Shown: positions 1,667 through 60,510 of the stretch, piece by piece
How the letters are laid out: every line of letters begins with the position of its first letter
Position numbering within the stretch: position 1 is the first letter of the stretch
Program-made: the position numbers and the translations under genes
The notes under the pieces: generated by a model
Databases searched by the model: none
What the model was told of the DNA's origin: nothing
Seen by the model: the letters and a program-made list of their open reading frames with translations, nothing else
NCBI RefSeq assembly: GCF_004010195.1
Contig: NC_057754.1
Location: 1,880,306 to 1,944,305, forward strand
Origin: Chiloscyllium plagiosum
Lineage: Eukaryota
Direction of reading: 5' to 3'
Length of the DNA: 64,000 nucleotides

Positions 1667-2418
1667 GTGAGTATTTTGGCTTTGATATTCCTACTGCTTT
1701 GTATAATGTAAACATCGAGTCAGTTAGATGGGTGTTTATATGTGCACGTTGAAACCCCAATCTTTAATCCCCTGGACTGTATTAAAATCTTTTCTGGAGT
1801 AAAATTGATGCAAAGATTCCACTTAGAAGCTACAAGATCCACTCTGGTATGACATGGAGGTAAAATCTCAGCACCACCATGATTCCACACACACCTTCAA
1901 TATTAACTTTCCTCTCTTAGTGTGGAGGAGCTGGTATTGGACTGGGGTGGACAAAGTTAAAAATCACACAACACCAGGTTATAGTGCCAGCAGGTTTATT
2001 TGGAAGCACTAGCTTTCAGAGCACTACTCCTTCAGCAGATAACTAGTGGGGCAGGATCATAAGACACAGAATTTATAGCATAAGATTACAGTGTCATTGC
2101 AATTAAAATGATATACTGAACAAACTTAGATTGCTGTTAAGTCTTTCATCTTTTTAGAATGGATTGGAGGGTGTCAACACGGATACCACCATTTCACGGC
2201 GGTACTCATGTGACTCAGCCAACGTTGCCCATCTCGTACGCTGCAGGCAAGGATGCCCTGTGGTATGGTACATTGGCGAGACCGAACTGATGCTACAACA
2301 ACAGATGAATGGATGCCATGCAACAATCGCCAGACCAGGATGTTCCCTCCCAGTCTGGGAACACTTCAACGGTCAGGGACATTCGGCCTTGGATCTTTGG
2401 GTGACCATCCTTCAAGGA

Positions 2419-3172
2419 TATACCCACCCTCCCATCCTGGCACTTTCCCCTGCCACCGCAGGAACTGTAAAACCTGCACCCACACCTCCTCCCTCACCTC
2501 TATCCAAGGCCCTAAAGGAGCCTTCCACATCCATCAAAGTTTTACTTGCACATCCATTAATATCATTTATTGTATCCGTTGCTCCCGATGCGGTCTCCTC
2601 TACATTGGGGAGACTGGGCACCTCCTAGCAGAGCGCTTTAGGGAACATCTCTGGGACACCGGCACCAATCAACCACACCGCCCCGTGGCCCAACATTTCA
2701 ACTCCCCCTCCCACTCTGCTGAGGACATGGAGGTCCTGGGCCTCCTTCACCGCCGCTCCCTCACCACCAGACGCCTGGAGGAAGAACGCCTTATCTTCCG
2801 CCTCGGAATACTTCAACCCCAGGGCATCAATGTGGACTTCAACAGTTTCCTCATTTCCCCTTCCCCCACCTCACCCTAGTTCCAAACTTTCAGCTCAGCA
2901 CTGTCCCCATGACTTGTCCGGACTTGTCCTACCTGCCTATCTCCTTTTCCACCTATCCACTCCACCCTCTCCTCCCTGACCTATCACCTTCATCCCCTCC
3001 CCCACTCACCCATTGTACTCTATGCTACTTTCTCCCCTCCTCTATCTTAATTCTCCACGCTTCAAGCTCACTGTCTTTATTCCTGATGAAGGGCTTTTGC
3101 CCGAAACGTCGATTGCGAAGCTCCTCAGATGCTGCCTGAATTGCTGTGCTCTTCCAGCACCACTAATCCAGA
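2419..3172 (+). mobile_element. Second Penelope-like element (GIY-YIG C-terminus plus pLTR) nested in the first
   Basis: ORF part PGTFPCHRRNCKTC...NIIYCIRCSRCGLLYIGETG..LAERFREH...LEEERLIFRLG..QPQGINVDF; pyrimidine-rich 3' UTR; hammerhead-like pLTR. Confidence 0.9.
3083..3110 (+). ncRNA. Minimal type-I hammerhead ribozyme motif in a Penelope pLTR (intact core)
   Basis: CTGATGA-A-GGGC-TTTT-GCCC-GAAA-C-GTC; palindromic ACGT in place of helix III. Confidence 0.75.
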
Positions 3173-3956
3173 ACATTGCAGAGTAGCCGAGCTGAGGGTG
3201 ATAGCCAAGTTCTATACCCATGAGGATGGCCTCAACCAGGACCTTGGGTCATGGCACACTATAGGTGACCCCACTACACTGTACACACTCACACAGACCC
3301 TCTCTCATACACCCGCTGTCTCTTAGACACGCACACATACCCCCCCCCCCCACACTCTCACAGGCTTATACATCATCACACTTACGCACACACTCTACCA
3401 AGCACGTAAACACAAACACTCACGTGTACTCACTCTCTCATGCACATACTCACGTGCGCTCTCTCTCTCTCTCCCCCCGCCAATCCCCCTCACATGCTCA
3501 CCCCCCACTCCCCCTCACATGTGCACGCACACACACACACAAGTCTATGGGGTGAATTTGCATTTGCAGAATTGTATTTACAGATACATTCTATTTTTGC
3601 TCAAAAAACACACTACCTGCAGGCAGTTAATGCAGGCAGTCTATCCACGCAATAGAAATAGAACCAGTGTGACTCAAGATTGGAATAAGGACAGACTCTA
3701 ACCTCACACCTTTAATGTATTGTCTGAGCTGAGATGTCAGTTTTTTTTTAATACGACCTTAAGTTATCTCGATAATGTGACTTAAAGGAAGTTCTGGGAG
3801 TTACAAAATGAACCACAACCTACAACCCATTCTAAAAGATGAAAGACTTGTCAGCAATCCAGGTTTGTTCAATATATTGTTCTAACTGCATGACACTGTG
3901 ATCTTTTGCTATAAATTTTGTGTCTTTTGCTGTAAATTTTGTGTCCCACTAGTTAC

Positions 3957-3988
3957 CTGATGAAGGAGCGGTGCTCTGAAAGCCAGTG
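3957..3988 (+). ncRNA. Degenerate minimal hammerhead motif (second Penelope family)
   Basis: CTGATGA-A-GGAGC-GGT-GCTCT-GAAA-GCCAG; its inverted copy at ~2008-2040 reads CTGCTGA...GAAAGCTAG. Confidence 0.55.
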
Positions 3989-6381
3989 TTTCCAAATAAA
4001 CCCGTTGCACTATAACCTGGTGTTGTGGGATTTTTAACTTTCTCCCTTAGAACATTGACAGATGTCCCTTGATAGAAATCATTAGGAATATGGAGGGATT
4101 TGATCAGTAGTTACGGAGAAGACATTTCCACCTGTGTTGAGGAAAACCATTATTGGCTCTTTGAAAAACTGACCAAACTCCATGAAAAGTGCAGAGGACA
4201 AGGACAGGCATACCCCTGTTCTGGAGCCAGGAAGGTTGGGAGCACAGGTTTTAGGTTTAGAATCCAAATCAGCCGACTCTCTTGAAAAGCAGTGATGAAT
4301 ATTGGAAATCATGGATCTTGAATTGTAACCCTACCACCATTTTTACCTCTACAAGGAGTCTCCCTGGCTCCGTTAAAAAACAGCCCAAATTGTTCTTTGC
4401 GAAGAAATTTCTAGATTGGGCAATGTTTTTAAATTCTTTGAGCTAGGCCAGAACAAGCCATATATTTTTGAATGGAATGGATGTGTGCAGCACATTCTAG
4501 ATTCCCAGTTATTTATTTTTGCCATAAATCAGATGATTCATTGCCTTTTAAGGATAGTATTATGTCACTTAATGCACAATGCTTTACTCTGCTATTAAGG
4601 GATAGCTTTGCTCTTGCAATGGCACATATATTAATTGATAAGCAATTAAAGTTCATTCACAATTTTCTTTTTCATTGAGACCTTTGAATAGAAAAGTTTG
4701 GGCATGCAGATCTGAAGCATCCAGCCTTAAAAGATTGGTGTGATTTTTAAAGTCTTCCGTGTTCTAGGCAACCTGATTGTTTTGATAGGAAGATAAACTT
4801 CTGTTCCTTTAAGGCGCTCGGTGTCTGAGTATGAGATAAAGAACATTGTGGGTAGGCAGGATACCTGTGAGTTGCTCTGAGAATGCATTAAAAACACTCT
4901 GGTAATTATTGAATTTATAATTTTCACAAGAATGGGATCAATATTAAAATGCGCTGTTGCAGGCACAACATTTACCCACATGGCATGATAACTTTATATG
5001 AAATATTAGAGAACAAGGCAAAAGACAAGAAATTCTGGAAAAAAGTTTGGGAATGATGGCAAGACTCAGCAGGTTTGACTGCGGCTGTATAGAGAGAAAT
5101 GGTCTTTTTAAGTCTTGTGTGACTGTCCTTCAGGAATTCTGAATATCATATTGCCACCTACTCCAAGCACACGACTCTCAGCTCAGATTGAGATGTTTCT
5201 TTCAATGATATATACTTGATGGATGTAAAGAGCTGTTATCAAGGAGGAAAACATGCCTCCTTTAAAGATGGCGGGCAGAGGGGCTTCAACTTGAGTAAAA
5301 GAAAATGAACCTAAATTTGTATGGACTGCAAAACTAGTGAAGAGGGGGATGAAGTAGGGATAAGGTAAGGAAAAATTGATTATTTACCCCCAAAAAGTCA
5401 TGGCCCTTGGGTTCCTCTCTGTTTGCTTAGGACTCTCATTAACATCAGTAAACATTGCTTTATTAGTGTGAAAGATCTTTATGGTGCAGGAAGAGATGAG
5501 TGAGTAGAGGAGAAGATTTGTGTTGTTCTTCTTCACATACTCCTCATATGCATTAAAGGGTAATAAATATATTTTGTGTTTCGATTATTGCAATACATCA
5601 TAAAGCAGATTGCTTAGCTCTTTCTTGCTGACCAGCAAATTAGTTTGACAGTGGTTTGATTTATCTCTCAAAGTTATAGCACCTGCAAGTGCTTTGCGCT
5701 AGGTTGCACTTACTGAAATGTGTGTGTAAAATGTTCAAAGTGGTGGTAAATTAAATGCGATTTGTGGCTAATGTTGACTTACTGATTTAAAGTTGTCAGA
5801 AAAATATTGAACAGTCAGTTGCAGGTAGAAGGCATCACTGATATATTTCATGGAAGTTGCATTTTGTCGGATTAAGCTGCAGACCTTTTGCTACATTAAG
5901 TAGAAAATCTTTTCACTTTTATTAGTTCCAGAAGGCCTGCATACATGCTAATTAACCATATTTATTAATGACAGAACATTTGTTTGGAGCAGCTCTCTTT
6001 CTTAATTGTAATTTAAGGACTCCTCTTCACCTGTCCCAAATCTCTGCAGCTACCCTGTCCTTAGTTGGGAGATAAGATGGTAATATTAATGCTATCCAGC
6101 TGACTTTTTGTCTCAACCAGCCACGAGACTCATTGCGGTGTCATCTAGAATCTTGTTTCTTGGCCAGTTTTCCTCACTTTCCTTGAGATCAATTACCCAT
6201 GACTAACTCCATTGAACGAAAGGTAAGAGCATTATTGACAGTGAAAACTGGCCTTCAAACTAAGATGCATTTATTGTGATATGGAATAATCGTGTATATA
6301 TACCCACCCTTTAATTTATCATATTATTAGAATTAAACAATTGTTTTGAATCTGGATTCTTTATATATAAGTGTTGTTGAA

Positions 6382-6410
6382 TCTCTGTCTCTGTCTCTGT
6401 CTCTCTCTCT
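6382..6410. repeat. (TCTCTG)n/(TC)n microsatellite
   Basis: tctctgtctctgtctctgtctctctctctg. Confidence 0.9.
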
Positions 6411-8864: not shown

Positions 8865-8975
8865 TGACTAGGACAAAGTGAGGACTGCAGATTATTAAGG
8901 GCTTATGCCCGAAACGTCAACTCTCCTGCTCCTCGGATGCTGCCTGACCTACTTTTCCAGCACCACAATTTTTGA
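8865..8975. mobile_element. Short Penelope pLTR-derived element
   Basis: aaagtgaggactgcaga followed by gggcttatgcccgaaacgtc...; flanks ctcctcttcacag (8852-8864) and ctccttttcacag (8976-8988). Confidence 0.7.
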
Positions 8976-8988
8976 CTCCTTTTCACAG

Positions 8989-9188
8989 GCTCACTAATGT
9001 CCTTCAGGGAAGGAAATCTGCCATTCTCACCAGGTCCAGCCTACATGTGACTCCAGGCCCTCGGCAATATAATTGAATCTCAACTGCCCTTTAAGTGGCA
9101 TAGCAAGCCACTCATTCAGAGACAGCTTAGAGACATGCAGTAAATGCTGGCCAGCCAGTGATGCCCATGTCTCAGAAATAAATAAAAG
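8989..9188 (+). mobile_element. SINE fragment (Meta-domain-like core, LINE-derived tail)
   Basis: gctcactaatgtccttcagggaaggaaatctgcc...ctacatgtgactccag...aaatgctggccagccagtgatgccca...aataaataaaa. Confidence 0.6.
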
Positions 9189-19162: not shown

Positions 19163-19778
19163 TGTGACCATACTCTGGCTTTAAAAGGTGAATTTTGTTC
19201 TGGTTTTGTTTTTGAAGAGAAGTTTTGAGCCATAGGTGCTGAGCTGTTTCTTCCCAGCCAATAAAATAAACAGCTTGTAAGGCCTTGGGCTTTTTAAAAT
19301 TGGAACAGTAGGAGCAGCCTGAATGGATAGGGTCAGGCTCCCACAGAGCCAGGGTTTTAGTTTAGCTTTCGGCAGTTGTTGGAGTATTGAAGTTGGCTGT
19401 GGATGCTGTCTTCCTCTCCCTGCTACAGCTTAAAAGCTTAGGTTCTCTCTCTTTGCTGGAATTGCACATGAGACAGTCTATTTTATTGAATTTGTCTTTG
19501 CCAAGAGCATATTAGCGGATGTAACTATATTGGAACAATTGCTGTTTTGTAGTTAAGTAATCTGTTATTGTGTTAGGTTTTCCAATAGTTAAAGCAAATC
19601 AATTCTTTCCTTTTTATTTTAATTCGGGCTAAGAATAAAGTGTGTCTTGCTTAAATCTGAGTAGTGTGACCAGTCAAATTACATCTGGAACACAGTATCT
19701 TACATTCACCTTTAAATAAGCTAAAAATTAGGCTATCTCCTTAATGTATTTGCAGGGAGTTTGGTCTGATCCATAACA
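19163..19778. mobile_element. Solo LTR (Gypsy-like)
   Basis: TGT...ACA ends, aataaa signal; 3' end tttggtctgatccataaca resembles the reverse of the 30081 LTR start. Confidence 0.6.
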
Positions 19779-20462
19779 TAAAGTCTGGATTGGTATCGTT
19801 GTTATCTATTACAAACTCATTGACTCCCAGTTACCTCGATTATGCACCCCCAAACCCTGCTTTCTGTAAAGACTCCATTCCATTCTCCAAGTTTCTCTAT
19901 CTCCATTGCATCTATTCCGATGATGCTAACTTCTACAAGAGGGCTCTGAAGTGTTCACCTTCTTCCTCAACCAATAATTCCTCACTGTCGTGGTTGACAG
20001 GGCCCTCTTCTGTGCCTGATTCATCTCCTGCACTTCTGACCTCACCCTATTGTCTTCTCTCCCATAACACTGATAGGCTCGCTCTGGGCCTTACTTTTCA
20101 CCACACCAGCATCCTCATCAAAAGGATCATGAGCCGCCCTATCCACCACTTCCACACATTTCAGAGCCCTCTTGTAGAAGTTAGCATCATCGGAATAGAT
20201 GCAATGGAGACAGAGAAACTTGGAGAATGGAATGGAGTCTTTACAGAAAGCAGGGTTTGGGGATGCATAATCGAGGTAACTGGGAGTCAATGAGTTTGTA
20301 ATAGATAACAACGATACCAATCCAGACTTTATGTTATGGATCAGACCAAACTCCCTGCAAATACATTAAGGAGATAGCCTAATTTTTAGCTTATTTAAAG
20401 GTGAATGTAAGATACTGTGTTCCAGATGTAATTTGACTGGTCACACTACTCAGATTTAAGCA
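19648..20462. repeat. 307-bp near-perfect inverted repeat (arms 19648-19954 and 20156-20462, 201-bp spacer)
   Basis: Arms align without indels; about 3 transitions counted by eye. Confidence 0.95.
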
Positions 20463-21385
20463 GTGGTGCCACTCATTCCCCTCCTCTCACTTGTCAACTT
20501 TCCCAGGAACCGTTCTGTTCAGGACACCCTGATACACTTCTCCTCCATTCACACCTCCCCTAACACCCACACAGCACCTTCCCATGCAATCGCAGAAGGT
20601 GTAATACATGCCCATTTACTTCCTCCCTCCTCTGTATCCAAGGCCCCAGACACATTGTCTAGGTGAAGCAGTGATTTACCTGCACTTCGTTCAATGTGGC
20701 TTACTGTATTCTCTGCTCACAATGTGGTCTTCTCTACACTAGGGAGACAAAATGCAGACTGGATGACAGTTTTGCAGAATATCCATATTCTGTCTGTCAA
20801 AATGACCCTGACCTTTTGGTTTCCTCCCACTTGAGTGCACCACTGTGTTCCTTGGCCAGCGTCTCTTTCTTGGGATTGCTGCAGTGCTCTGGTGAAGCTC
20901 GGGGCAAGCTGGAAGAACAGTATCTCATTTTCCATTTGGATACCCTGCAGCCTACAGGACTCAATTTCAAGTTCAATAATTTTAGAGCCAGACCACTGCC
21001 TTCCATGTACTTTCCAAACCCCCGCATACAAGGCCTTATCATCACATGGGCTGCTTCCATAACCAACCCATTGTCGGTGACTAATGGCCCCCATAGCAGC
21101 TATTGATTCTCCCAGGCTGCCCATTACCCATTTCTTTGTCTTCACAACTGCTGCTGTCTCTCTCTGGGCTCCGTCTCCACCTATCATTTATTCCTGCCTC
21201 CTTCACCCAGCCCATCCAAAGAATACATACCAATCTTTTCCTAGCTACAAGCCGTTTGAAAGAAGGGTCACTGGACCCGAAACTTTAACTCTACTTTGTC
21301 TCCACAGATGCTGCAAGATCTGCTAAGTTTCTCTAGCAATTGTTTTTTTTTTCTGATTTTCAGCATCTGCACTTCTTTAGTGTTT
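19800..21385 (+). mobile_element. Decayed Penelope-like element (RT thumb, GIY-YIG, pLTR)
   Basis: SYLDYA..PAFCKDSIPFSKFL; YCILCSQCGLLYTRETKCRLDDSFAE...EEQYLIFHLDTLQPTGLN; pLTR with gggtc-actg-gaccc-gaaa at 21265-21282. Confidence 0.85.
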
Positions 21386-25290: not shown

Positions 25291-26693
25291 TTGTTTCACA
25301 TCAATGCTAAATACAGGCTGCTGTTACACACCACTTGGCATCACAATTCCATTTTGACTTTGCAATATTTTCTATTGTTAATCCACCTTCTTCTTACGGA
25401 TGATTGCAATGAGGGCTGGTTAGACAAAGAATTGATCTCGGACACTGCTAGGGATGCAACCCTTACTGCTGGGGGGATAGAAATACCTAATTCTCTTTCA
25501 AAGTCTTGTTTTTTCAAAATCTCCATTTCTTTCTCTCACTCTTGCTCTTTTAATCTCTCTGAATATTGAAATCAGGTATACCAAGCAAGATTAATTAAAG
25601 AAGTCCAAAAGAACAGACACAACAGTAGCTTCAATACATTCTTGGTCTCGTGTGGTTTGCATCACTCCTGGCCCTGGCTTTTCTTCTGGAAAGCACATCT
25701 TTTACCCATTCTTGAAAAATGGCTGGGCTGTTAGAAAATACAGCAAAGTACATTTTGAATTGTATTAACCTCCTTATTCGTCACATTAAAAGGCTTTTTT
25801 TTGCTGTTGGAGGTGACCACCACAGGCTCCTGCAATGCTGCTGACTTGTAGTGAGTGAAATGGTCACCAAAATTCTTGGCTGTGGAACATCCTGTCTGAG
25901 GTGAGGGCATCCTGCTCACTGACCACATGTGCTCCTTTGAGTCACCCATGCAAATCTTGCTTGCACAGGAAAGGAGGTGAGAAGCAGGTTGGCATATGAG
26001 ACAACATAACATGGGCATTGCTGGATCTGACACCATGTAAAGTATTGACCACCATACTTTAACTTCAAACTGGAAAATCTCAATCAGAGTTGTTAAATCT
26101 GAAATGTTTAACTTGGAAGGGATGTGTAATCTGATTCTGTCAGAGCTTTCAATAAGCATAAACTTAGATCCCACCTATTTTGCTGAACACCAGGCTCTGT
26201 GATAAATTAGACTTTCAATTAAAGAGCCGGCATAGATTTGGCAGACTGAATAGTCTTTATCTGTGTTGTAAAATTCTGTGTTATTCTAAATCAATGAACC
26301 TGCATTCAGTCACATATAAAGCACCTCTCACAGTTTGCACATTATAAAAACAAGCAGCCAGGATAAGCTGCAGCATAAGTTAATGTTGCCTGGAGCAGTT
26401 TGTTTAAGGCTAAATATACGTTTGTGCTGGAGAGCAACTAAAGGAAATAACCTTCAAATCTAATGTGGTAAAACAAAGCTTTGTCTGAATACTTGCAGGT
26501 CAGCATGAATCCTGATGGCATGCTTAGCTGCCAAGAAATGTTGCTTCTGTAGTATTTCTGCAGGACCAGGATTTCCCCCTGTGCTGAGTGAACATAAACA
26601 GTGGCCATTCCACCAAGACAGCAGCATCCTGTCAATCCACATGGAAGGCTACTCATCTCATTAACCATGGTTTAGCAAGCAGACACAAAGGAA

Positions 26694-27992
26694 GGAATAG
26701 TCAACATGGCTTTGTGCATGAGAAATCATGTCTCACAAACTTGATGGAGTTTTTTGAAGAAGTAACAAAGAGGATTCATGAGGGCACAGCGGTAGATGTG
26801 ATCTATATGGACTTCAGTAAGGCGTTCAACAAGGTTCCCCATGGGAGATTGATTAGCAAGGTTAGATCTCACGGCATACAAGGAGAACTAGCATTTGGAT
26901 ACAGAACTGGCTCAAAGGTAGAAGACAGAAGGTGGTCGTGGAGGGTTGTTTTTCAGACTGGAGGCCTGTGACCAGTGGAGTGCCACAAGAATCGGTGCTG
27001 GGCCCTCTACTTTTCGTCATTTATATAAAGGATTTGGATGCGAGCATAAGAGGTACAGTTAGTAAGTTTGCAGATGACACCAAAATTGGAGGTGTAGTGG
27101 ACAGCGGAGAGGGTTACCTCAGATTACCACAGGATCTTGACCAGATGGGCCAATGGGCTGAGGAGTGGCAGATGGAGTTTAATTCAGATAAATGTGAGGT
27201 GCTGCATTTTGGGAAAGCAAATCTTAGCAGGACTTATACACTTAATGGTAAGGTCCTAGGGAGTGTTGCTGAACAAAGAGACCTTGGAGTGCAGGTTCAT
27301 AGCTCCTTGAAAGTAGAGCCGCAGATAGGATAGTGAAGAAGGTGTTTGGTATGCTTTCCTATATTGGTCAGAGTATTGAGTACAGGAGTTGGGAGGTCAT
27401 GTTGCGGCTGTACAGGACATTGATGAGGCCACTGTTGGAATATTGTGTGCAATTCTGGTCTCCTTCCTATCGGAAAGATGTTGTGAAACTTGAAAAGGTT
27501 CAGAAAAGATTTACAAGGATGTTATCAGGGTTGGAGGATTTGAGCTATAGGGAGAAGCTGAACAGGCTGGGGCTGTTTTCCCTGGAGAGTCGGAGGCTGA
27601 AGGGTGACCATAGAGAGGTTTACAAAATTATGAGGGGCAAGAATAGGGTAAATAGACAAAGTCTTTTCTCTGGAGTGGGGGAGTCCAGAACTAAAGGGAC
27701 ATAGGTTTAGGGTGAGAGGGGAAAGATATAAAAGAGACCTAAGGGACAACGTTTTCACACAGAAGGTGATACGGGTATGGAATGAGTTGCCAGAGGAAGT
27801 GGTGGAGGCTGGTACAGTTGCAACATTTAAGAGGCATTTGGATGGGTATATGAATAGGAAGGGTTTGGAGGGATTTGGGCCGGTTGTTGGCAGGTGGGAC
27901 TAGATTGGGTTGGGATATCTGGTCGGCATGGACAGGTTGGACCGAAGGGTCTGTTTCCATACTGTACATCTCTATGACTTTATGACTCTATG
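26694..27992 (+). mobile_element. 5'-truncated CR1 LINE, ORF2 RT C-terminal half (frameshifted) and 3' UTR
   Basis: QHGFVHEKSCLTNLMEFF, YMDFSKAFNKVPH, SGVPQESVLGPLLFVIYI, SKFADDTKIG, LEYCVQFWSP, VWNELP; (atgactct)n-type tail. Confidence 0.95.
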
Positions 27993-30915: not shown

Positions 30916-31482
30916 TAGGAGAAAGTGAGGACTGCAGGTCAAATGTGTGGTGCTGGAAAAGCACGGCAGGTCAGACAGCATCCGAGGAGCAGGAGAGTCG
31001 ACGTTTTGAGCATAAGCTCTTCATCAGGAATGTTGGGGAGGCCCAAGGGGCCTGAGAGATAAATGGGAGGGGGTTGGGGCTGGGGGAAGGTAGCTAGGAA
31101 TGCAATAGCTAAATGAAGGTGGGGGTGGTTATGATAGGTCAGAGTGGAGGGTGGAGCGGATAGGTAGAAAGGAAGATGGACATGTAGGGCAGTTCAAGAA
31201 GGGGTGCTGAGTTGGAGGGTTGGTTCTGGGATAAAGTGAGGGGGAGGGGAGATAAAGAAACTGGTGAAATCCCCATTGATCCCATGTGGTTGGAGGATCC
31301 CAAGCTGGAAGATGAAGCGTTCTTCCTCCAGTCGTTGGGTGGCTAGAGTCTGGCGGTGGAGGAGGCCCAGGTCTTGCATGTACTTGGTGGAGTGGGAGGG
31401 GGAGTTGAAGAGGTTGACCACAGAGCGGTGGGGTTGTTCAGTGCATGTGTCCCGGAGATGTTCTCTGAAACATTCCGCAAGT
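30916..31482 (-). mobile_element. Penelope-like element 3' fragment with hammerhead-like motif
   Basis: LFNSPSHS..DLGLLHRQTLATQRLEEERFIFQLG..QPHGIN; minus-strand CTGATGA-A-GAGC-TTAT-GCTC-AAAA-CGTC at 31000-31027. Confidence 0.88.
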
Positions 31483-35312: not shown

Positions 35313-35682
35313 CGGAAGAACACAGGACTCCACATTGAGTTCTCCAATTTCAAATAACCTCCCTCTCCAACACCCGACTCTCTTCCCAGCTCCATCCCCT
35401 TCCATTCCTCCCATCAACCCTTCCTACTAGCCACCAACTGGATTCTTTCCTCCCATCGACCAACCAGGTTGTAACCTCTACCTGTGTGCACCTATCCCCA
35501 CCTCACCAGTCTGCCCCCCACCCCCTTTATCTGCAGCTTCCTTTCCACCCAGCCCCAGTCCTGACGAAGGTTTACACCCGAAATGTTGACTTCTCCACCT
35601 CCTGATGCTGCCTGGCTTGCTGTGTTCTTCCAGCCTCCTGTTTGCCTACCTTGGATTCTAGCATCTGCAGTTTTTTTTGTCT
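35313..35682 (+). mobile_element. Penelope 3' end/pLTR insertion with hammerhead motif and TSD
   Basis: agtc-CTGACGA-A-GGTT-TAC-ACCC-GAAA-TGTT-gact at 35557-35591; flanks ctaagccagcactta (35298-35312) and ctaaggcagcactta (35683-35697). Confidence 0.8.
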
Positions 35683-35794: not shown

Positions 35795-35992
35795 ATATAA
35801 ACTGAAAGGACTGCAGATGCTGTAAATCAGAAACAAAAACAGAAGTTGCTGGAAAAGCTCAACAGGTCTGGCAGCATCTGTGAAGAGAAATCGGAGTTAA
35901 TCTCAAAGTCACCGGACCCGAAATATTAACTTTGATTTCTTTTCACAGATGCTGCCAGACCTGCTGAACTTTTCCAGCAACTTCTGTTTTGG
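35795..35992. mobile_element. ORF-less hairpin element made of two inverted pLTR halves
   Basis: aaaacagaagttgctggaaaag...cttttccagcaacttctgtttt; exact 13-bp TSD tccaggattttga (35782-35794, 35993-36005). Confidence 0.85.
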
Positions 35993-36034
35993 TCCAGGAT
36001 TTTGACACAGGGATATTTAAGGAATGGCAGCACA

Positions 36035-42156: not shown

Positions 42157-42807
42157 ATGAAGAAGGCTAATAGCATGCTGGCCTTCATAACAAGAGGGAT
42201 TGAGTATGGAAGCAAAGAGGTTCTTCTGCAGCTGTACAGGGCCCTGGTGAGACCACACCTGGCGTATTCTGGTCTCCAAATTTGAGGAAAGACATTCTGG
42301 CTATTGAGGGAGTGCAGCGTAGGTTCATGAGGTCAATTCCTGGAATGGCGGGACTACCTTACACTGAAAGACTGGAGCGACTGGGCTTGTATACCTTTGA
42401 GTTTAGAAGACTGAGAGGGGATCTGATTGAGACATATAAGATTATTAAAGGATTGGACACTCTGGCGGCAGGAAACATGTTTCCACTGATGGGTGAGTGC
42501 CGAACCAGAGGACACAGCTTAAAAATACGGAGTAGACCATTTAGGACAGAGATGAGGAGAAACATCTTCACCCAGAGAGTGGTGGCTGTGTGGAATGCTC
42601 TGCCCCAGAGGGCAGTGGAGGCCCAGTCTCTGGATTCATTTAAGAAAGAGTTGGATAGAGCTCTCAAGGATAGTGGAATCAAGGGTTATGGAGATAAGGC
42701 AGGAACAGGATACTGATTAAGGATGATCAGCCATGATCATATTGAATGGTGGTGCAGGCTCGAAGGGCGGAATGGCCTACTCCTGCACCTATTGTCTATT
42801 GTCTATT
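42157..42807 (+). mobile_element. 5'-truncated CR1 LINE 3' end
   Basis: KKANSMLAFITRGIEY..LYRALVRPHL; RRLRGDLIETYKII; VWNALPQ; (attgtct)n tail. Confidence 0.95.
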
Positions 42808-43223: not shown

Positions 43224-44285
43224 CAAGGTGGCGATGCTGGCAAGGTAGGCAACATTTGGATTTCTGAGTTAGTCTGCTCCAGGCAGCTGATTCCTCCCTT
43301 CTTTTCTCCCGTTGTCGCAGCAGAGGGGAGCAGCCGGAGCAGGCCTCCTGGCAAGGCCTGGCCTGGTGATGGAGCCAGGGACTCCTGATTGTGGTATTCC
43401 CGGAGCAGGGAATGCATGCATCAGCAAGGCAGAGGCTGAAGCGGTGGTGGTGTGGTATTCCCGGAGCAGGGAGTGCAGACATCAGCAAGGCAGTGGCTGA
43501 AGCGGTGGTGGTGTGGTATTCCCAGAGCAGAGAGTGCAGGCATCAGCAAGGCAGCGGCTGAAGCTGTGGTGGTGTGGTATTCCCAGAGCAGGGAGTGCAG
43601 GCATCAGCAAGGCAGAGGCTGAAGCTGTGGTGGTGTGGTATTCCCAGAGCAGGGAGTGCAGGCATCGGCAAGGCAGTGGCTGAAGCGGTGGTGGTGTGGT
43701 ATTCCCAGAGCAGAGAGTGCAGGCATCAGCAAGGCAGCGGCTGAAGCTGTGGTGGTGTGGTATTCCCGGAGCAGGGAGTGCAGGCATCAGCAAGGCAGAG
43801 GCTTCAGCAAAGCCAAGGACGCCTGGTTGTGGAAGAGTCCAGAGCGGGACTGCTGCTTATCAGCATTGTGGTGCGGTGGTTCCTGGTTGTGGTAGGTCAA
43901 GAGCAAGGGTCTCCTGGTTGTTGGTACGGTTGTGACAGTAGTGGAGCTGGGGGCTCCTGGCAGCAGGGTGAGTGTGGGTCCTTCGTGTGACCTGGCATTG
44001 GCAGCCTGTCAGCAGGGTGGGCCCAATGCTGAAGAGATGGCACCTGAAGGGTGGCGACTCTGAAATTGGTGGGTCTGGTGCAGGTGTCACTGTGGGTGTG
44101 GCCATCTCAGGGCTCGCGCCTCACGGTGGCGACAACGGATTGAAGATTGACTGATTGTTTTTCAGCTGTGCCTTTTTATTCTTGAAGTGTTCAAGTGGTG
44201 CCAGATTGTGGCGACAGTTGAAGTTTTTCACTATATTTTACCATGTTGCTCATTGTAGAGTACAAATGACAATAAATTATTATTC
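43224..44285 (+). mobile_element. GC-rich non-coding element with LINE-like tail, containing a minisatellite
   Basis: Starts caaggtggcg; ends aagtttttcact...gtacaaatgacaataaattattattc (resembles Rex1/L2-type 3' ends); GC content jumps relative to flanks. Confidence 0.45.
43391..43803. repeat. 61-bp minisatellite, ~6.8 copies
   Basis: gtggtattccc recurs at 43391, 43452, 43513, 43574, 43635, 43696, 43757. Confidence 0.97.
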
Positions 44286-44484: not shown

Positions 44485-44677
44485 AAGGAGAAAGTAAGGA
44501 CTGCAGATGCTGGAGATTAGAGTCGAGAATGTGTTGCTGGAAAAGCACAGCAGGCCAGGCAGCATCCAAGGAGCAGGAGAATCGACATTTTGGAAAGGCT
44601 TATGCCCAAAACATCGATTCTCCTGCTTCTTGGATGCTGCCTGGCCTGCTGTGCTTTTCCAGCACCATATTCTCAAC
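44485..44677. mobile_element. ORF-less hairpin element of inverted Penelope pLTR halves
   Basis: gctggaaaagcacagcaggccaggcagcatcc...ggatgctgcctggcctgctgtgcttttccagc; flanks ttaagaagggtc (44473-44484) and ttaagaagagtc (44678-44689). Confidence 0.85.
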
Positions 44678-45739
44678 TTAAGAAGAGTCTGCCAATTAAA
44701 TTCGCCATAGAAAGTTGAGGTTAATGCCTAATGCCATAAAGCAACTTTAAGTCATGAGATTTCTGTTTCTGCAATGCCACTCAAACCCTCTGGACCAGAA
44801 AGGAAACAATTTCTACCTTCAGTCTTAATCCTACAGGCAATTGTTCATAAACTTAGCTTTTCTTCCTTTCTTTTTTCTCTCCTTCAATACATTTTTTCTT
44901 ACCATGTCTGTATTTCCCTTTTTTTGTACATGATTTCATTCTAATTCACTCCATTTTATTCTCAATTGTTCCTCTTCTTTTCTCGATCCTTCAATATCAT
45001 TGATTGGAGTGATAGACAGTTGATCCTATACCTTTACCTTGTCACAGTATTAGCAACTTGGATTTCCAGCAATTGCAAAGATTTTTAGGGTGGAAGGTTA
45101 AAGGGGAAACATCTGAGTCTCATCTCCTTTCCAGCAAATTCTGGCCTACTGTGTTTGAGGCATTAGGACACAATAATTCATCACAGCAAAATTTGTCTGG
45201 ATGGCATCATTGAGGTGGCTTTAGCCTTATTTATGTAAACAGCAATTCATAGACCTAACATATGACCTGTAAATTCTGTCAATGAAACATATTTCTCCTT
45301 TATATACCTTTGTATATCTGTTATGTGAATTTGGGGGAAAAATAATGGAGGGGAGGGATCAAAGTAACATCAACTTGGGTTTATTTAGCACCTTCAAAAT
45401 GTAAAACTTCCAAATTGCTTTGCAGAGACAAAACTATAAAATTTGGATGGCAAACCATTTTGACAGATGACCATACATAGGTTTTAAAGAAATGCCAGGG
45501 AGGCAATGAGATGAACTGGTTTAGTGAGGAGAATTCCAAAGTGTATTAGAGTACTCTGGGCAAAAGAGATCAAAAGGGAGAAAACAGGAATAGGGTACTG
45601 AGCTGAATGATCAGCCATGATCGTACTGAGTGGTATATTAGACTTGAAAGGGCAAAATGGCCTACTCCTGCTCCTGTTGTCTGTGTATCAATGGGTCTGG
45701 CTTGCTGAAAGAATTATCACTGGTAATATAATTTTTTAA

Positions 45740-49244: not shown

Positions 49245-50050
49245 CCAAAAGAGAAAATGCTGGAAAATCTCAGCAGGTCTGGCAGCATCTGTAAGGAGAG
49301 AAAAGAGCTGACGTTTTGAGTCTAACTGACCCTTTGTCAAAGCTAAAAAAAGGGGAGAAATGAGGGAGGTATTTATACGTGGCTGAGAGAAGGTGAGTCA
49401 TGGCTCCAGAAGCAAAGAGATGATAATGACAGTGCATAGAGAGATTATAGGGAGATTAGGAGCTGTGAATGACCAAGGCTGAAGCCAGTGCTGTGTAACA
49501 AAATATGTGGGGGATGGGGGGGAGGGATGAAGCAGAGGCAAAATGGAAAACAGGGGAGAAGGGTAGCAAAGGGGGAAGAGGAGAGAAAAAGGTGATGAGA
49601 GTGTGGGGAGCGAGAGAAAGAGAGACAATCAAGAAATAAGAGGTACAGAACAGTGAAAAAGAAATTTAAAGAAAATAAATGAAATAAAATTATCTGAAGT
49701 TGTTGAATTCAATGTTGAGACCAGCAGGCTGTAACGTGCCTAGTTGGAAGATGAGATGCTGTCCCTCCAGTTTGCATTGAGCTTCACTGGAACATTGCAG
49801 CAGGCGAAGGACAGACATGTGGGCATGGGAGCCTGATTGTGTGTTGAAGTGGCAAGCCACGGGAAGGTCCGGGATCTGATTGCATACAGACCGAAGGTGC
49901 TCAGCAAAGCGATCACCCAGTCGGCGTTTTGTCTCTCCGATATAGAGGAGACCACATTGGGAGCAACGAATGCAATAGACCAGATTGAAAGAGGTACAAT
50001 GAAACACTGCTTAATCTGAAATGAGTGTTTGGGGCCTTGGATGGTGAGCC
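49245..50050 (-). mobile_element. Penelope-like element 3' part with open GIY-YIG domain
   Basis: ORF 49690-50007 NLVYCIRCSQCGLLYIGETKRRLGDRFAEHLRSV...LGTLQPAGLNIEFNNFR; pLTR with gggtc-agtta-gactc stem at ~49309-49341. Confidence 0.92.
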
Positions 50051-51694: not shown

Positions 51695-52340
51695 AGCCTC
51701 CATAATTATAAAATGCTTCAAGAGGTTATTCACGGCTCACATCAACTCCAGCCTACCAAATTGCCCTGATTCTTTGCAATTCGCCAACTGGTGCAATGGG
51801 TCCATGGCAGATGTCATCTCCCTGGCCCTACATTCATTCATCCCTGGAACATCTGGATAATAAGGTTAGCTATGTCAGGCTTCTAGGCGAAAAGTGAGGA
51901 CTGCAGATGCTGGAGATTAGAGTTGATAGTGTGGTGCTGGAAAACCACAGCAGGTCAGGCAGCATCCGAGGAGCAGGAGAATCGATGATTCGGGCAAAAG
52001 TCCTTTGTCAGGCTTCTCCTTATTGATTACAACACTATAATTCCAAACAGACTTATCTTCAAACTCTGAGACCTAGGTCTCAGCTCCCCCCTCTGTAACT
52101 AGATCCTTGACTACCAGACCAATAGACCGCAATTAGTAAAAATAATCGACAACACCTCCACACCGGTGACGCATGAGGTTGTGTACTCAGGCCCCTTCTG
52201 TACTCCTTGTACACTCACGACTACATGGCCAAATTCTGCCCCAACTCCATTTACAAGTTTGCTGATGACACCAACATCCTTGGTGGGATCTCAAACAATA
52301 ACGAGACAGAATACAGGAAAGAGATAGAGTGCTTAGTGAC
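51695..52340 (+). mobile_element. Rex1/Babar-type LINE RT fragment
   Basis: KCFKRLFTAHINSSLP..LQFA..ADVISLAL..LEHLDNKVSYVRLLLIDY..NTIIP..GCVLRPLLYSLYTHDY..YKFADDT. Confidence 0.8.
51885..52005 (-). mobile_element. Solo Penelope pLTR (~120 bp) inserted in the Rex1-like LINE
   Basis: Exact 12-bp TSD tgtcaggcttct (51873-51884, 52006-52017); same family as 44485 and 60296. Confidence 0.85.
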
Positions 52341-52342
52341 AT

Positions 52343-55259: not shown

Positions 55260-55560
55260 GCTGTTCAGAGTTGATGAGCTGGAGTCTGAGCTGCAGACAC
55301 TGCAACACATCAAGGAGAGGGAAGAATTACCTGAATACTGTATTTCAGGAGGTAGTCAGACTCCTTAGATTCACAATACAAAATGTGGTCCATGATCAAG
55401 GACAGAAGGGTGTGACAGCAAGTGCATTAGGTATTGGGATCCTGAATATAGCTTCCTAGGAGCCTCAGCTAGTGCCCTTATTCATTAAGTATGAGGTTCT
55501 TGCTCCTGGTATGGACAGACAGTGCAGGTAAGATGAGCAAACAGCTTAAAGATATTTGCT
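55260..55560 (+). mobile_element. CR1 ORF1 N-terminal fragment
   Basis: FRVDELESELQTLQHIKE..YLNTVFQEVV coiled-coil region recalled from CR1 ORF1. Confidence 0.55.
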
Positions 55561-58325
55561 CGCCATATCACATGAATAAAGAGGGAAAGTTGAAGCAAAA
55601 TGATCCTGATGTCAAGGTGACCATCTCGCCTGATTCTGCCACTTATCTTGCCATTGCTAGTGTTGGTTAGATCTTGGTAAGATTCCATCCAAATATTTTT
55701 TATCACATATTGTAACATGGATTTCAGTGACTTTAGAGCAAGTCATTGAAGTGATCCTGTTCAATGCACCACACATCATCCATGATGATGAAATTCAGAC
55801 TGTATCTACAATGATCCATAGCATTAGTATTACATCTGGCTATCAAGGAGAAAAGCTGTCTGATTAAACAATATCAAAACAATATCAAAGCTGTCTGATC
55901 AAAGAAAAACATGAAAACGCAAAAACAAAACGGCATCTGAATCTGTATGCATGGCAACAGAATTGGAAAATCACAAGACGTGCATTAGATCTACTGTGTT
56001 TTATTGAGATTGACAGTTAATCTCAAATCCTTTATATTCACTCTTCAGCGATTTCAATTATGCAGACTAATTTGTGGCAGAAATTATTTTTGAGGTAAGA
56101 ATATGAATTTGAGATGTTTGAGAAAAACATTAGTTTGAAACAAATGGAAAAGATGTTGCTAGCCCTTGGACAAACGGTGGGATTGAACTGTGCAAGGATC
56201 ACTCCTCACATTCTGTCTGTGCTGGGGATTTAAAAGCAATCTATTGCTCTCTGTGATTCAGTGAAAATAATAAAAACAATATTGTTGCAATTTTTAAAAA
56301 AATCTGAGCAACACTTATTGTCCTGGCTGTTTCTGGACTCTGGCATCTCATCAGGAGGATAGGATAATAGCAGTAATCTTTAGAGTGAGAATATGACGGA
56401 GCCCTGACTCTGAAGCACTGATTAGATGTGAGAGCTGGTGATAGTGAAACAAATGTTTAACCTCCATCAGGTTTATATTCTGCTGCAGTTTGGTTTCGTG
56501 TCTCTTGCAGTTGTTCATTTCTGAATCGCGATTACTTAGAGTTATAGAGTCATATAGCACGGAAACAGACCCCTTGGTCCTACTCATCCATGCAACCAGA
56601 CATCCAATCTGACCTAGTCTCATTTGCCAGCAGTTGACTCATATTACTAAATCCTTCCTATTCATATGCACATCCAGATGCCTTTTAAATGTTGTACCTG
56701 TCTCCACCGGTTCGTCTGGCAACTTGTTCCATACACACACCACCATCTGCATTGACAAAGTTACCCCTTGGATCCTTTGCAAGTCTTTTCCCTCTCACCT
56801 TAAATATATGCCCTCTAGTTCTGGACTCCACCATCCTCGGAAAAAGACCTTGGCTATTCACCCTATCCATGTCCCTCATGATTTTATAAACCTCTATAAG
56901 GTCACCCCTCATCCTCTGATGCTCCAGGGAAAAAAGCCCCAGCCTATTCAGCCTCTCTGTCTATAGTTTAAATCCTCCAGTCCCAGCAACATTCTTGAGA
57001 ATCTCTCAAGTTTAACAACATCTTTTCTAAAGAAGGATGACTCGAATTGTATGCAGTATTTCAAAAGTGGCCTCATCAATATCCTTACAGCTACACCATG
57101 GTGTCCCAACTCCTATACTCCATGTTCTGACTGACAAAGGCAAGTGTACCAAATGCCTTCTTCGCCACCCTGTCTATCTGCAATTTCACCTTCACGGAAC
57201 TCTGCACCTGCACCCCTAGGTCTGTTAGTTCGGCAACACTCCCCAGGGCCCTACCATTAGTTGTATTAGTCCTGCCCTGGTTTGCCTTACCAAAACACAA
57301 CACTTCACATTTATCTAGGTTAAGCTTCATCTGCCACTCCTCAGCCCACTGGACCATCTGATCAAGGTCCTGTTGTACTCTGAAATAATCTTCTTCACTG
57401 TGCACTAAGCCACCTACTTTGATGTCATCTGCAAACCTACTAACCATACCTCCTGTATTCACATCCAAATCATTTATATAAATGCCGAAAAGCAACACAC
57501 CTAGCATCGATTCTTGTGGTACATTGCTGGTCACAGGCCTCCATTCCGAAAACAATCTTTTGCCACCATTCTCTGTCTCCTACCTTCAAGCCAATTTTGT
57601 ATCCAATTGGATCCAATGTGGTCTAACTTCCTAACGAGTCTACCATGTGGAACCTTGTTGAACACTTTTCTGAAGTCCAAATAGACAATGTCTACAACTC
57701 TGCCTTCATCAATCTTCTTTGTCACCTCTACAAAAAACTCAATCAAGTTAGTGAGACACAATTTCCCATGCTCAAAACCATATTGAATATCCCAAATCAG
57801 TCCTTGCCTTTCCAAATGCATGTAAGTCCTACCCTTCATTATCCCCTCAAACAACTTACCACTACTGACATAAGGCCCACTGGTTTATAGTTCCCTGACT
57901 TTTCCTTAGCACCTTTCATAAATAATGACATCTCACTAGCCAATCTCCAGTCTTCTGGTACCTCATCTGTGGCTGTTGATGATACAAGTATCTCACCAAG
58001 AGGTCCAGTAATCTCTTCCCCAGCATCCCACAAAGTTCTGGGAATCACCTCATCAGGTCCCAGGGATTTATCAACCCTTATGTATTTTAAGACCTCCAGG
58101 ACTTCCTCTTCGGTAATGTGTACTATTTTCGAGACATCATTATTTCCCCAAGTTCCCTAGCTAGCATATACTTTTCCACAGTAAATACTGATGTGAAATA
58201 TTCATTTAGTATCTCACCCACCTCCTGTGGTTCATCACATAAACAATCACATTCATCTTTAAGGAGCCCTATTCTCTCCCTAATTATTCATTTTGGTCCT
58301 TAATGTATTTATCTCTTCAGATTCT

Positions 58326-58538
58326 TAGAACATAGAACATTGAACATTACAATGCAGTACAGGCCCTTCAGCCCTCGATGTGCTGACCTGTGGAACCAAT
58401 CTGAAGTCCATCTAACCGACACTATTCCATTCTCATCCATATGCCTACCCAATGACCATTTAAATGTCCTTAAAGTTGGCGAGTCTATTACTGTTGCAGG
58501 CAGTGTGTTCCACGCCCCTATTACACTCTGAGTAAAGA
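58326..58538 (-). mobile_element. Short CR1 3' end nested in CR1
   Basis: FTQSVIGAWNTLPATV; tail tagaacatagaacattgaaca. Confidence 0.8.
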
Positions 58539-58659
58539 GTAGGTCAAGTTTTGGACCTTCTCTAGTAGGTACATCCACATACTGAATAAAAAAATTATCT
58601 TGTACAGACTTAACAAATTTCTCTCCATCCAAATCCTTAACACCCTGGCACATGTTATT

Positions 58660-58962
58660 TATTAGATTCTCTACAGTGTGGAAACAGGCTATTTGGCCTA
58701 ACAAGTCCACACCGATCCTCTGAAGAGTAACTCACCCCCCCTACATTTGCCCCTGACTAATGCACTTAACACTATGGGCAATTTAGCATGGCTAATTCAC
58801 CCGACCTGTTCATCTTTGGACTGTGGGAGGAAACGGTAGCAAACCAATGCAGACATGAGGAGAATGTGCAAGTTCCACACAGACAGTCACCAGAGGCAGG
58901 AATCGAACCCAGGTCCCTGGCGCTGTGAGATAATAGTGCTAACCACTGAGCCACTGTGCCAC
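58660..58962 (-). mobile_element. HE1-type V-SINE nested in CR1
   Basis: Head ggcacagtggctcagtggttagcact...ggttcgattcc (B-box); V-domain. Confidence 0.9.
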
Positions 58963-59774
58963 TCCAGCGCACATATCCCAGTCTACGTTTGGGAAGTTAA
59001 AATCCTGTACCATAACCACCCTGTCATCCTTACAGATATCTGAGATCTCCTTACAAATTTGCTTCTCAATTTCCTGCTGACTATAGAGGGGTCTATAGTC
59101 CAATCACAATAAGGTGATCATTCCTTTCTTATTTCTCAGTTCCACCCAATTGAACTCACTGGGCATACTGCCAGGAAAATCCTCCCTAAGTACAGCTGTA
59201 ATGTTATCCATAAACAAAACGACACTCCCCTTCCTCTCATATCCCCTTTTCTATCCTTCCTATCGCATCTATATCCTGGAACATTAAGTTGCCAGTCCTG
59301 TCCATCCCTGAGCCATGTTTCTGTAATATCTATGATATCCCACTCCCATGTTCCCTACCATGCTCTAGGTTAATTTGCCTTACCTATCAGGCCTCCCGCA
59401 TTGAAGTGAATGCGGTTTAATTTACTAGTTTTATCTTGTTCTCTACCAAGCTCTTGCCTGCCTTGACTATTATCCTGCTCCCTTTATCCACTGTGCCAGA
59501 CTCAGCCTTTTTCACTCACTATAGATGTGGTGACTACTCCCCCCTCACCTCCCCATGCCACTTACTAGTTTAAAGCCTTCAGAGTAGCACTAGCAAATCT
59601 CCCCACAAGGATATTTGGCCCCTTCCAATTCAGGTGGAACCTGAACCTCTTATACAGGTCATTTCTACCCCGAAGAGATTCCAGTGGTCCAAAAATGTGA
59701 ATCTTTGCCCCCTGCACCAGCCCCTCAGTCATGCATTATCCGTCAGTTCTTTGGCATGCTTTGTATTACTTCCA

Positions 59775-60140
59775 GGTTTATAAAATCATGAGGGGTTTGG
59801 TAGGGTGAATAACCCAGGTCTTTTTCCCAGGATCGGGGAGTCCAGAATTAGAAGGCATAGGTTTAAATTGAGAGGGGAAAGATATAAAAGGGACCTAATG
59901 GGCAACTTTTTCATCCAGAAGGTGGCGCATATATGGAATGAGCTACCAAAGGAAGTGGTGGTGGCTGGTACAATTACAACATTTAAAAGGCATCTGGATG
60001 GGTATATGAATAGGAAGGGTTTCGAGGGATACAAGGCCAAATGCTGGAAAATGGGACTAGGTCAGATTGAGTTGTCTGGTTGGTGTGGACGAGTTGGACC
60101 GAAGGATTTGTTTCCTTGCTGTATGAGTCTATGACCCTAT
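59775..60140 (+). mobile_element. CR1 3' end
   Basis: GLFPRIGESRIRRHRFKLRGERYKRDLMGNFFIQKVAHIWNELP. Confidence 0.9.
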
Positions 60141-60296
60141 ATTGGAGCAAGAGTAGGGTAAATAGCCCTTCAAATCACCATTCAATAAGGCTATGGCTGA
60201 TCTTGTACCTCAGCTATTCCTCCACACAATGTCCCCATATGTCTTAACTACCATTGGAATAAAGTCTTCAGATTTGAATGCCTAATGCCTAAGCAT

Positions 60297-60510
60297 GAAA
60301 ATGTGTTGCTGGAAAAGCGCCGCAGGTCAGGCAGCATCAAGGAGCAGGAGAATCGACATTTCGGGATGAGCCCTTCTTCAGGAATTCCTGAAGAAGGGCT
60401 CATGCCCAAAACATCGATTCTCCTGCTCCTTGGATGCTGCCTGACCTGCTGCTCTTTTCCAGCAACACATTTTCAGCTCTGATCGCCACCATCTGCAGTC
60501 CTCAGTTTCT
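60297..60510. mobile_element. Palindromic pLTR dimer carrying back-to-back hammerhead motifs
   Basis: Arms 60296-60384 and 60385-60475 centred on ggaa|ttcc; 16-bp direct flank cctaatgcctaagcat (60281-60296, 60511-60526); inserted in a minus CR1 fragment (~60140-60700). Confidence 0.9.

What the first reader, a model, noticed from the sequence alone, without database searches (positions are those of the whole stretch)
2008..60415. Hammerhead-ribozyme motif with covarying stems in more than 10 Penelope-type terminal repeats from several families
Seen: CTGANGA-A-[stem II]-GAAA-[palindrome] recurs at 2008-2040(-), 3083(+), 3957(+), 8899(+, 5' lost), 21257(+), 31000(-), 35561(+), 35906(+, partial), 44594(+, partial), 49309(-), 51983(-) and 60356-60415 (both strands). 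Stem II differs but stays paired: GGGC/GCCC, GAGC/GCTC, GGGTC/GACCC, GGAGC/GCTCT, GGGTC/GACTC. The helix-III position is a 4-nt palindrome in both main families (ACGT or AGCT). Known: Penelope pLTRs carry minimal hammerheads thought to cleave as dimers. Inference: several independent ribozyme-bearing lineages were active in this genome, and most copies were inactivated by CpG decay (cgaaacg to caaaaca).
Basis: partly seen in the sequence, partly recalled or inferred. Interest (0 to 1): 0.75.

Follow-up and report, generated by a model that had tools for sequence, protein, structure and literature searches.

The report
Penelope ribozymes sit at transcript starts
These are minimal hammerhead (self-cutting RNA) motifs of a known kind at the ends of Penelope-type jumping genes, present in over 60,000 exact copies in this genome, and short copies begin just before the motif, about 31 bases after a TATA-like box, which likely marks where the element's RNA starts.

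Summary
Real, and of a known kind. All 13 sites exist; only 3083 is fully intact. They are minimal type I hammerheads in the terminal repeats (pLTRs) of Neptune-type Penelope-like retroelements, as described by Cervera and De la Pena 2014. One 30-base intact pattern occurs 61,112 times genome-wide (control 0); a 1.16 Mb sample extrapolates to about 2 x 10^5 intact cores. Compensatory changes hold in helices I and II and at the core 3-8 pair (a U3-A8 family). 'Most copies inactivated by CpG decay' fits this window but not the genome sample (35 of 167; truncation, 53, is the largest class). Likely mechanism: reverse transcription starts inside uncut RNA and runs off its 5' end. Cleavage and start site are untested. 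This scan's earlier unreviewed notes reached the same reading on other DNA, including this genome.

The parts
1921..2170 (-). Family F2 pLTR, inverted arm with tail; hammerhead C3 at 2038 (A6>C damage)
2158..2420 (+). F2 GIY-YIG endonuclease fragment, 5' part of the F2 copy whose pLTR ends at 4045 (end approximate)
   Evidence: ORF 2158-2628 matches F2 protein read
2420..3173 (+). 5'-truncated F1-B copy: CX4CX2C linker, GIY-YIG domain, pLTR (start approximate)
3079..3114 (+). Intact minimal hammerhead: helix I 5' strand from 3079, C3 at 3083, G12 at 3103, predicted cut after 3110
3819..4045 (+). F2 pLTR without tail; C3 at 3957, U16.1>C removes the cleavage triplet
8897..8971 (+). Short F1 copy starting inside the ribozyme (about +6 from C3)
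19745..21370 (+). F3 copy: RT-thumb and endonuclease remnants, pLTR with damaged hammerhead at 21257 (limits approximate)
30941..31213 (-). F1-D pLTR; C3 at 31027, compensatory helix II variant GAGC/GCTC, G12>A
35514..35634 (+). pLTR of a further subfamily; C3 at 35561, fully paired 4-bp helix I, one-base loss in helix II, C15.2>T
35806..35981 (.). Head-to-head pair of short F3-type copies, both lacking the first core box
44486..44678 (.). Head-to-head pair of short F1 copies (arms start at +18 and +5; tail on the minus arm only)
49258..50010 (-). F3c copy: GIY-YIG remnant, TATA box 37 bases before the core, U3-A8 variant hammerhead at 49340, G12>A
51893..52012 (-). Short F1 copy starting at -1; C3 at 52011, damaged core
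60296..60515 (.). Head-to-head pair of short F1-A copies, both arms starting at -4 (C3 at 60381 minus, 60388 plus); tail on the plus arm only

Best explanation
These are minimal type I hammerhead motifs in the terminal repeats of several Neptune-type Penelope-like retrotransposon families, and they likely form the first 30-40 bases of the element's RNA. Shown: motif, covariation, link to the RT/GIY-YIG ORF, 5' ends of short copies 4-8 bases before C3 and 31-33 bases after a TATA-like box, two 3' end points (about +90 and +126). Inferred: RNA polymerase II starts there; the element's RT starts inside the RNA at +90 or +126, as shown in vitro for the anole element, copies back through the uncut ribozyme and usually runs off the 5' end, giving 95-130 bp inserts; two such cDNAs joined at their run-off ends give the head-to-head pairs. 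Inferred from the literature: two motifs pair through the ACGU/AGCU palindrome and cut slowly, probably with protein help; a cut in the downstream pLTR would set the RNA 3' end with about 32 bases of terminal redundancy (or a circle), letting RT continue into long copies.
For: Density and controls. Element link: GIY-YIG at 2214 and 49693; one locus with N-terminus, RT, thumb, GIY-YIG then hammerhead, unit about 3.2 kb. Selection on structure: unconstrained tables for helix I pair 3 in F4 (GC 11, TA 6, CG 3, GA 1 of 21) and F2 (CG 17, TA 4, TG 3 of 24); A on the 5' side of helix II pair 2 goes with T in 61 of 100 listed copies against 1 of 82 when G; U3-A8 in 93 of 100 listed, 1,096 in all; F1 subfamilies are 83-94% alike over the ribozyme but 22-85% over the 40 bases before it. 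5' ends: 40 of 151 at -5..-2 against 4 over -59..-15; solo copies 19 of 93 against 2; genome-wide 11,050 breaks at -5|-4 against 1,063 at -8|-7; 50 of 50 inspected such loci lack upstream pLTR. TATA spacing: F2 box at -39, commonest edge -9/-8 (9 of 29); F3c box at -35 to -37, edge -4 (4 of 9); F1 degenerate box at -35 to -37, edge -4. F4 has a hammerhead but no pile-up in 31 copies. Tail on one arm in 29 of 29 pairs.
Against: No RNA evidence for a start or a cut: polyA single-cell reads showed no place where many molecules begin or end, though that library is a poor test. An extra G expected from a cap is mixed: G in 57 of 100 family A junctions, but 4 of 14 solo family C junctions and 6 of 17 non-templated family B rows. 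The F1 box is a weak TATA. F2 ends spread from -9 to 0. Helix I of the commonest F1 subfamilies has a U-U mismatch (51 of 62), so cutting may be poor. No full-length copy with two hammerheads was seen in the 3 regions fetched for it.
Confidence: 0.62

Rival explanations
1. The motif is a known PLE hammerhead, but the pile-up of 5' ends is made at the DNA level: the element's GIY-YIG nuclease cuts the new copy or an older pLTR at the ATT just before the core.
For: The anole PLE nuclease prefers 5'-ATT-3' in its own pLTR region (PMC11167929, main text); the F1 edge is ATTC.
Against: Edges in F2 (ACAA) and F3c (AGCT) are not ATT yet keep the same distance from the TATA box; long copies keep the site uncut (30 of 151).
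Confidence: 0.12
2. RT stalls or drops off at the folded or protein-bound ribozyme, or a 5'-3' exonuclease trims the RNA back to it; the edge reflects structure, not a promoter.
For: The F1 and F3c edges coincide with the first base of helix I; many ends lie inside the ribozyme (-1..+27: 43 of 151).
Against: A stall should fall 3' of the helices, not after them; the F2 edge is about 5 bases outside helix I and follows the TATA box; F4 hammerheads show no pile-up in 31 copies.
Confidence: 0.13
3. Head-to-head pairs arise by self-priming on an antisense transcript, as proposed for rotifer Penelope elements, and the shared edge is a by-product of that route.
For: PMC3846280 (passages) argues this from palindromic junctions; perfect AT-overlap junctions are common here (window 60381/60388).
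Against: Solo copies show the same edge (19 of 93); many junctions carry extra non-palindromic bases; sense-RNA internal initiation was shown in vitro (PMC11167929).
Confidence: 0.06
4. The motif is kept for a non-catalytic role (RNA dimerisation, protein binding or promoter sequence) and rarely or never cuts in vivo.
For: Copies starting at the cut site are rare: at most about half of 1,142 matches (15 of 30 inspected were point mutants, 10 lay at inverted junctions, 5 solo); catalytic mutants did not affect insertion in vitro for the anole element.
Against: Catalytic-core letters and the NUH triplet are kept across 13 lineages while N7, loop II and H17 vary freely, and the 3-8 pair covaries, which points to selection for catalysis.
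Confidence: 0.2

Closest known systems
[quoted passage not shown]
   Same: Type I topology, no loop III, palindromic 15.2-16.2, extra base before helix II, G10.1-C11.1, short helix I, many families per genome, mostly single motifs, opposite-strand pairs, U3-A8 variant (reported in Schistosoma).
   Different: Number: about 2 x 10^5 intact cores estimated here against about 4,000 (coelacanth) and 9,000 (Xenopus) there, by a different descriptor. The parts read do not mention cartilaginous fish or a pile-up of copy ends at the motif.
Poseidon element of the green anole, PAc (Frangieh et al. 2024, PMC11167929; parts 1-2 of 4 read)
   Same: Hammerhead just upstream of two internal RT start sites whose gap is the optional tail; uncut RNA is the main template; no RNA-seq ends at the cut site.
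   Different: The window's families carry the Cys-rich linker of Neptune-type elements; tail end points here are inferred from DNA (+90, +126); the 5' run-off edge is not described in the parts read.
PLE insertion anatomy (Craig et al. 2021, PMC8557442; Arkhipova et al. 2013, PMC3846280; passages)
   Same: 5'-truncated copies, adjacent inverted copy, 30-40 bp tail at one end, putative TATA and initiator in the pLTR.
   Different: Here most insertions are only 95-130 bp or hairpins of two such pieces, with a fixed 5' edge.
Non-LTR retrozymes (Li et al., bioRxiv 10.64898/2026.07.22.740005; parts 1-2 of 5 and passages)
   Same: Non-coding pLTR-derived units with type I hammerheads; reported in one chondrichthyan (mean 363 bp); a 325-bp direct repeat of two motifs was seen here (L327).
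   Different: Window copies are dispersed or head-to-head, not tandem arrays.
Drosophila virilis Penelope promoter (Schostak et al. 2008, PMC2377424; passages)
   Same: Transcription starts inside the pLTR.
   Different: TATA-less, start 46 bp before a 75-bp intron whose end meets helix I; here no AG precedes the F1 edge and a TATA-like box sits 31-33 bases upstream.

Membership tests
Minimal type I hammerhead (min-HHR) | CUGANGA and GAAA-NN-UH boxes around a paired helix II | tested here: met
Minimal type I hammerhead (min-HHR) | Palindromic 15.1-16.1 with no loop III | tested here: met
   8 of 8 representatives; CG and GC types
Minimal type I hammerhead (min-HHR) | Short helix I closing the motif, with compensatory changes | tested here: met
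   weak in F1-A/B (U-U at pair 3 in 51 of 62)
Minimal type I hammerhead (min-HHR) | Extra base between A9 and G10.1; G10.1-C11.1 pair | tested here: met
   bulge in 13 of 13 lineages, G-C in 10 of 13, G-U in 2
Minimal type I hammerhead (min-HHR) | Active fold forms as a dimer | tested here: inconclusive
   RNAcofold optima pair by other helices and do not model the core
Minimal type I hammerhead (min-HHR) | Self-cleavage after NUH | not testable with these tools
   no read-end pile-up in polyA single-cell reads, a poor test
Rfam hammerhead families | Match to a curated covariance model | tested here: not met
   no hammerhead family at E<=1 in the window
Endonuclease-positive Penelope-like element | Single ORF with RT followed by GIY-YIG, upstream of the pLTR | tested here: met
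   Pfam GIY-YIG; domain motifs in order in L344 and L188
Endonuclease-positive Penelope-like element | pLTR in direct or inverted arrangement with optional 30-40 bp tail | tested here: met
   3' ends 81 near +90 and 82 near +126 of 167; 29 of 29 pairs with one tail
Neptune clade | CX2-5CxxC linker between RT and endonuclease | tested here: met
   F1 and F3 in the window, F2 in L153/L154/L174; shared with Nematis per PMC8557442
Neptune clade | RT phylogeny groups with Neptune | not tested
   no tree built; no named PLE references at hand
Non-LTR retrozyme | Tandem array with a hammerhead in each unit | tested here: not met
   no such array in the window; one two-unit case elsewhere (L327)

The most novel reading that the evidence does not exclude
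In these Neptune-type elements the promoter starts the RNA at the front edge of the hammerhead, so internally primed reverse transcription makes a 95-130 base 'strong-stop-like' cDNA; hundreds of thousands of failed jumps are frozen in the genome as solo stubs and one-tailed hairpins, while cleavage of the downstream hammerhead supplies a 32-base redundant end (or a circle) that lets RT jump and copy the whole element. The ribozyme would play the part of the R region of LTR elements.
Probability: 0.35. Interest if true: 0.65.

Novelty: new member of a known kind. Interest (0 to 1): 0.37.

Why it matters
The ribozyme-pLTR link is published, so the finding as written is ordinary. What has value is the scale (at least 61,112 exact intact copies of one pattern, about 2 x 10^5 cores by extrapolation) and the sharp geometry of copy ends. 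How Penelope-like elements make more-than-unit copies, and what their hammerhead is for, is open in the papers read. The end positions give exact predictions (RNA start at -4 or -8, RT starts at +90 and +126, cut after +27) that one 5'-end library and one in vitro assay could test. Natural variants (U-U versus U-A in helix I, U3-A8 core) give ready controls.

Tried and rejected
Rfam scan: no hammerhead hit, only hairpin-like microRNA matches below gathering score over the inverted pairs. MAFFT alignment of 13 lineage copies shifted F2 by one column, so pair counts were made by structure anchoring in a script (89% of cells paired, shuffle mean 60%, maximum 73% of 5,000); those representatives were picked with patterns that partly required pairing, so that figure is circular and the unconstrained tables carry the claim. 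No Infernal model or R-scape test was run. Cleavage-site starts as a record of in vivo cutting: rejected as weak (8 of 151 at +28..+30; 3 of the 4 at +28 explained by short homology at inverted junctions). Spliced template as cause of the edge: rejected, no AG before the F1 edge and no shared upstream exon. Unknown subfamilies as cause of the edge: rejected, 50 of 50 inspected junctions had unrelated or inverted flanks. Cap-derived extra G: inconclusive; mostly hit a family with a templated T and was a poor test. The conserved ATG in the downstream box as ORF start: not adopted, it is out of frame with the main ORF in family B. RNA runs: no RNA holder listed; run X20 gave 0 reads, X19 gave 1,377 and 682 reads on both strands, nearly all partial, as expected for copies inside host transcripts. 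RNAcofold dimer test: uninformative. Lunse et al. on dimer cleavage was not available; only its title was seen in a reference list.
Full report
Check of the observation. All 13 sites were found. The topology is type I: helix I 5' strand, CUGANGA, one extra base, helix II, GAAA, two bases, UH, helix I 3' strand, so helix III is only the four-base palindrome A15.1-N-N-U16.1. Only 3083 is intact under a strict descriptor. Exact core plus helix II occurs 4 times in the window against 0-1 in 20 shuffles. Rfam has no matching hammerhead model.

What carries them. The window lies in a 3.56 Gb assembly; that it is a shark rests on earlier scan notes and on recall, not on a test here. Long copies at 3083 and 49340 follow GIY-YIG domains, and F1, F2 and F3 have a CX4CX2C linker before the nuclease, the mark of Neptune and Nematis elements in PMC8557442 and PMC3846280 (passages). 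Locus L344 shows N-terminus, RT, thumb, GIY-YIG and hammerhead in order; the unit is about 3.2 kb. No full-length copy with both hammerheads was seen in the 3 regions fetched for that purpose, one of which was mostly N.

Abundance. I took 120 stretches of 10 kb at round-number positions on the 38 largest contigs (1,162,327 non-N bases). The strict descriptor gave 74 hits against 1 in reversed sequence and 2, 0, 1, 2, 1 in shuffles, or 1.7-2.8 x 10^5 per genome if the sample is representative. One exact 30-base F1 pattern occurs 61,112 times, control 0.

Covariation. Tables in which the paired letters were left free: F4 helix I pair 3 GC 11, TA 6, CG 3, GA 1 of 21; F2 helix I pair 3 CG 17, TA 4, TG 3 of 24; F3 helix I pair 2 TA 8, CG 3, other 3 of 14; F1 helix I pair 3 TT 51, TA 6, other 5 of 62. 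The family of 49340 has U3-A8 in 93 of 100 listed matches, C3-A8 in 7, C3-G8 in none (1,096 in all), the same core covariation that PMC4209133 reports in Schistosoma. Across 13 lineage representatives N7, H17 and loop II vary while 89% of predicted pairs hold, but these copies were chosen partly for pairing.

Fate of copies. Copies were collected with a profile of the downstream box only (254 hits, 235 correctly oriented, 167 F1-like). Of the 167, 45 are complete and intact, 53 truncated inside or past the ribozyme, 21 damaged only by CpG transitions, 14 by CpG plus other changes, 15 by other changes, 15 unparsed, 4 at edges. The six commonest substitutions are all CpG transitions, but CpG decay does not account for most losses.

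Ends of copies. Numbering C3 as 0, 5' ends of 151 scorable F1 copies were: 30 beyond -60, 4 in -59..-15, 18 in -14..-6, 40 in -5..-2, 28 in -1..+6, 15 in +7..+27, 8 in +28..+30, 8 in +31..+36 (16 at edges or N left out). A few arm ends in inverted pairs are alignment artefacts, but solo copies show the same peak (19 of 93 against 2). Genome-wide, family A has 11,050 matches with a non-templated base at -5 and 1,063 at -8, the latter including point mutants; all 30 family C and 20 family A loci inspected lacked upstream pLTR (the 20 were the first G rows only). The cut site gives 1,142 matches, half of 30 inspected being point mutants. Head-to-head arrangements with both cores within 30 bases number 10,873, 39 of the 50 listed with gaps up to 14. 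3' ends fall near +90 (81) or +126 (82) of 167, and each of 29 head-to-head pairs has the tail on exactly one arm.

Why the edge. Earlier scan notes suggested a TATA box and a cap-derived G, which I then tested. F2 has TATAAA at -39 and 27 of 29 short copies end in -9..0, 9 of them at -9/-8; F3c has a TATA box at -35 to -37 and 4 of 9 short copies end at -4; F1 has a degenerate box at -35 to -37 and ends at -4. The edge thus follows the box by 31-33 bases, and in F2 it lies outside helix I. A fourth type outside the window (F4, beside a different RT) has a good hammerhead and no pile-up in 31 copies (by eye), so the fold alone does not make the edge. The extra G is mixed (57 of 100 in family A, 4 of 14 solo family C, 6 of 17 family B). 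RNA reads gave no start or end pile-up, but they were polyA single-cell reads, about 2% of one run, dominated by copies inside host transcripts.

Mechanism. I commit to: transcription starts at the front of the hammerhead (inferred); RT starts internally at +90 or +126 (inferred from 3' ends and from the anole element, PMC11167929); it mostly copies uncut RNA and runs off (inferred); paired run-off products give one-tailed hairpins (inferred); slow dimeric, protein-assisted cleavage (published for relatives: low dimer activity in PMC4209133, protein-assisted in PMC11167929) likely shapes the RNA 3' end or a circle for long copies (untested; DNA cannot tell a jump from a circle).

Literature seen. 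PMC4209133 parts 1-2 of 4; PMC11167929 parts 1-2 of 4; bioRxiv 10.64898/2026.07.22.740005 parts 1-2 of 5 and passages; passages of PMC8557442, PMC2377424, PMC6765202 and PMC3846280. No supplements were read, and those of PMC4209133 and the preprint may list cartilaginous-fish motifs. Searches listed no paper on shark PLE hammerheads or on copy ends at the ribozyme edge; one search listed one review (PMC6155905) that was not opened, and subscription journals are mostly absent.

Verdict. A new member of a known kind. The end geometry is the interesting part, and this scan's unreviewed notes have reported it on other windows and genomes (702 notes held the search words; none near this window).

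Noticed in passing
window 1921-4045: Nested insertion: an F1-B copy (about 2420-3173) sits inside the endonuclease region of an F2 copy whose inverted and direct pLTRs are the 2038(-) and 3957(+) sites.
   Followed up: partly
L048:2783-2826, L077:9724-9767, L096:9536-9579 and others: A fourth hammerhead type (F4; U bulge, 6-bp helix II, three helix I variants) beside a different PLE RT, absent from the window; its copies do not end at the motif's edge.
   Followed up: partly
L321-L323, L326, L327, L334, L336: Seven of 30 loci join ORF 5' sequence (+247 to +310) to the pLTR at about -75, giving units of roughly 320-385 bp; L327 has two direct hammerheads 325 bp apart. Possibly a non-autonomous, retrozyme-like family.
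   Followed up: partly
L338, L341; joints: ORF 5' sequence joined directly to the -5/-4 edge, as expected if RT jumped to another RNA position after running off.
   Followed up: no
window, 45-75 bases after C3 in F1, F3 and 35561 copies: A downstream box shared by these families is as conserved as the ribozyme and begins with an ATG reading MLP(D/E)LL; in family B this frame closes before the main ORF. It may be a protein-binding or promoter element.
   Followed up: partly
window 26588-27704, 42204-42716, 57091-58156, 59784-60134: Decayed LINE reverse transcriptase fragments (Pfam RVT_1 for three tested); CR1-like by recalled sequence features.
   Followed up: no
window 43390-43803: 61-bp tandem repeat, 6.8 copies, 94% matches.
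   Followed up: no
   Followed up: no
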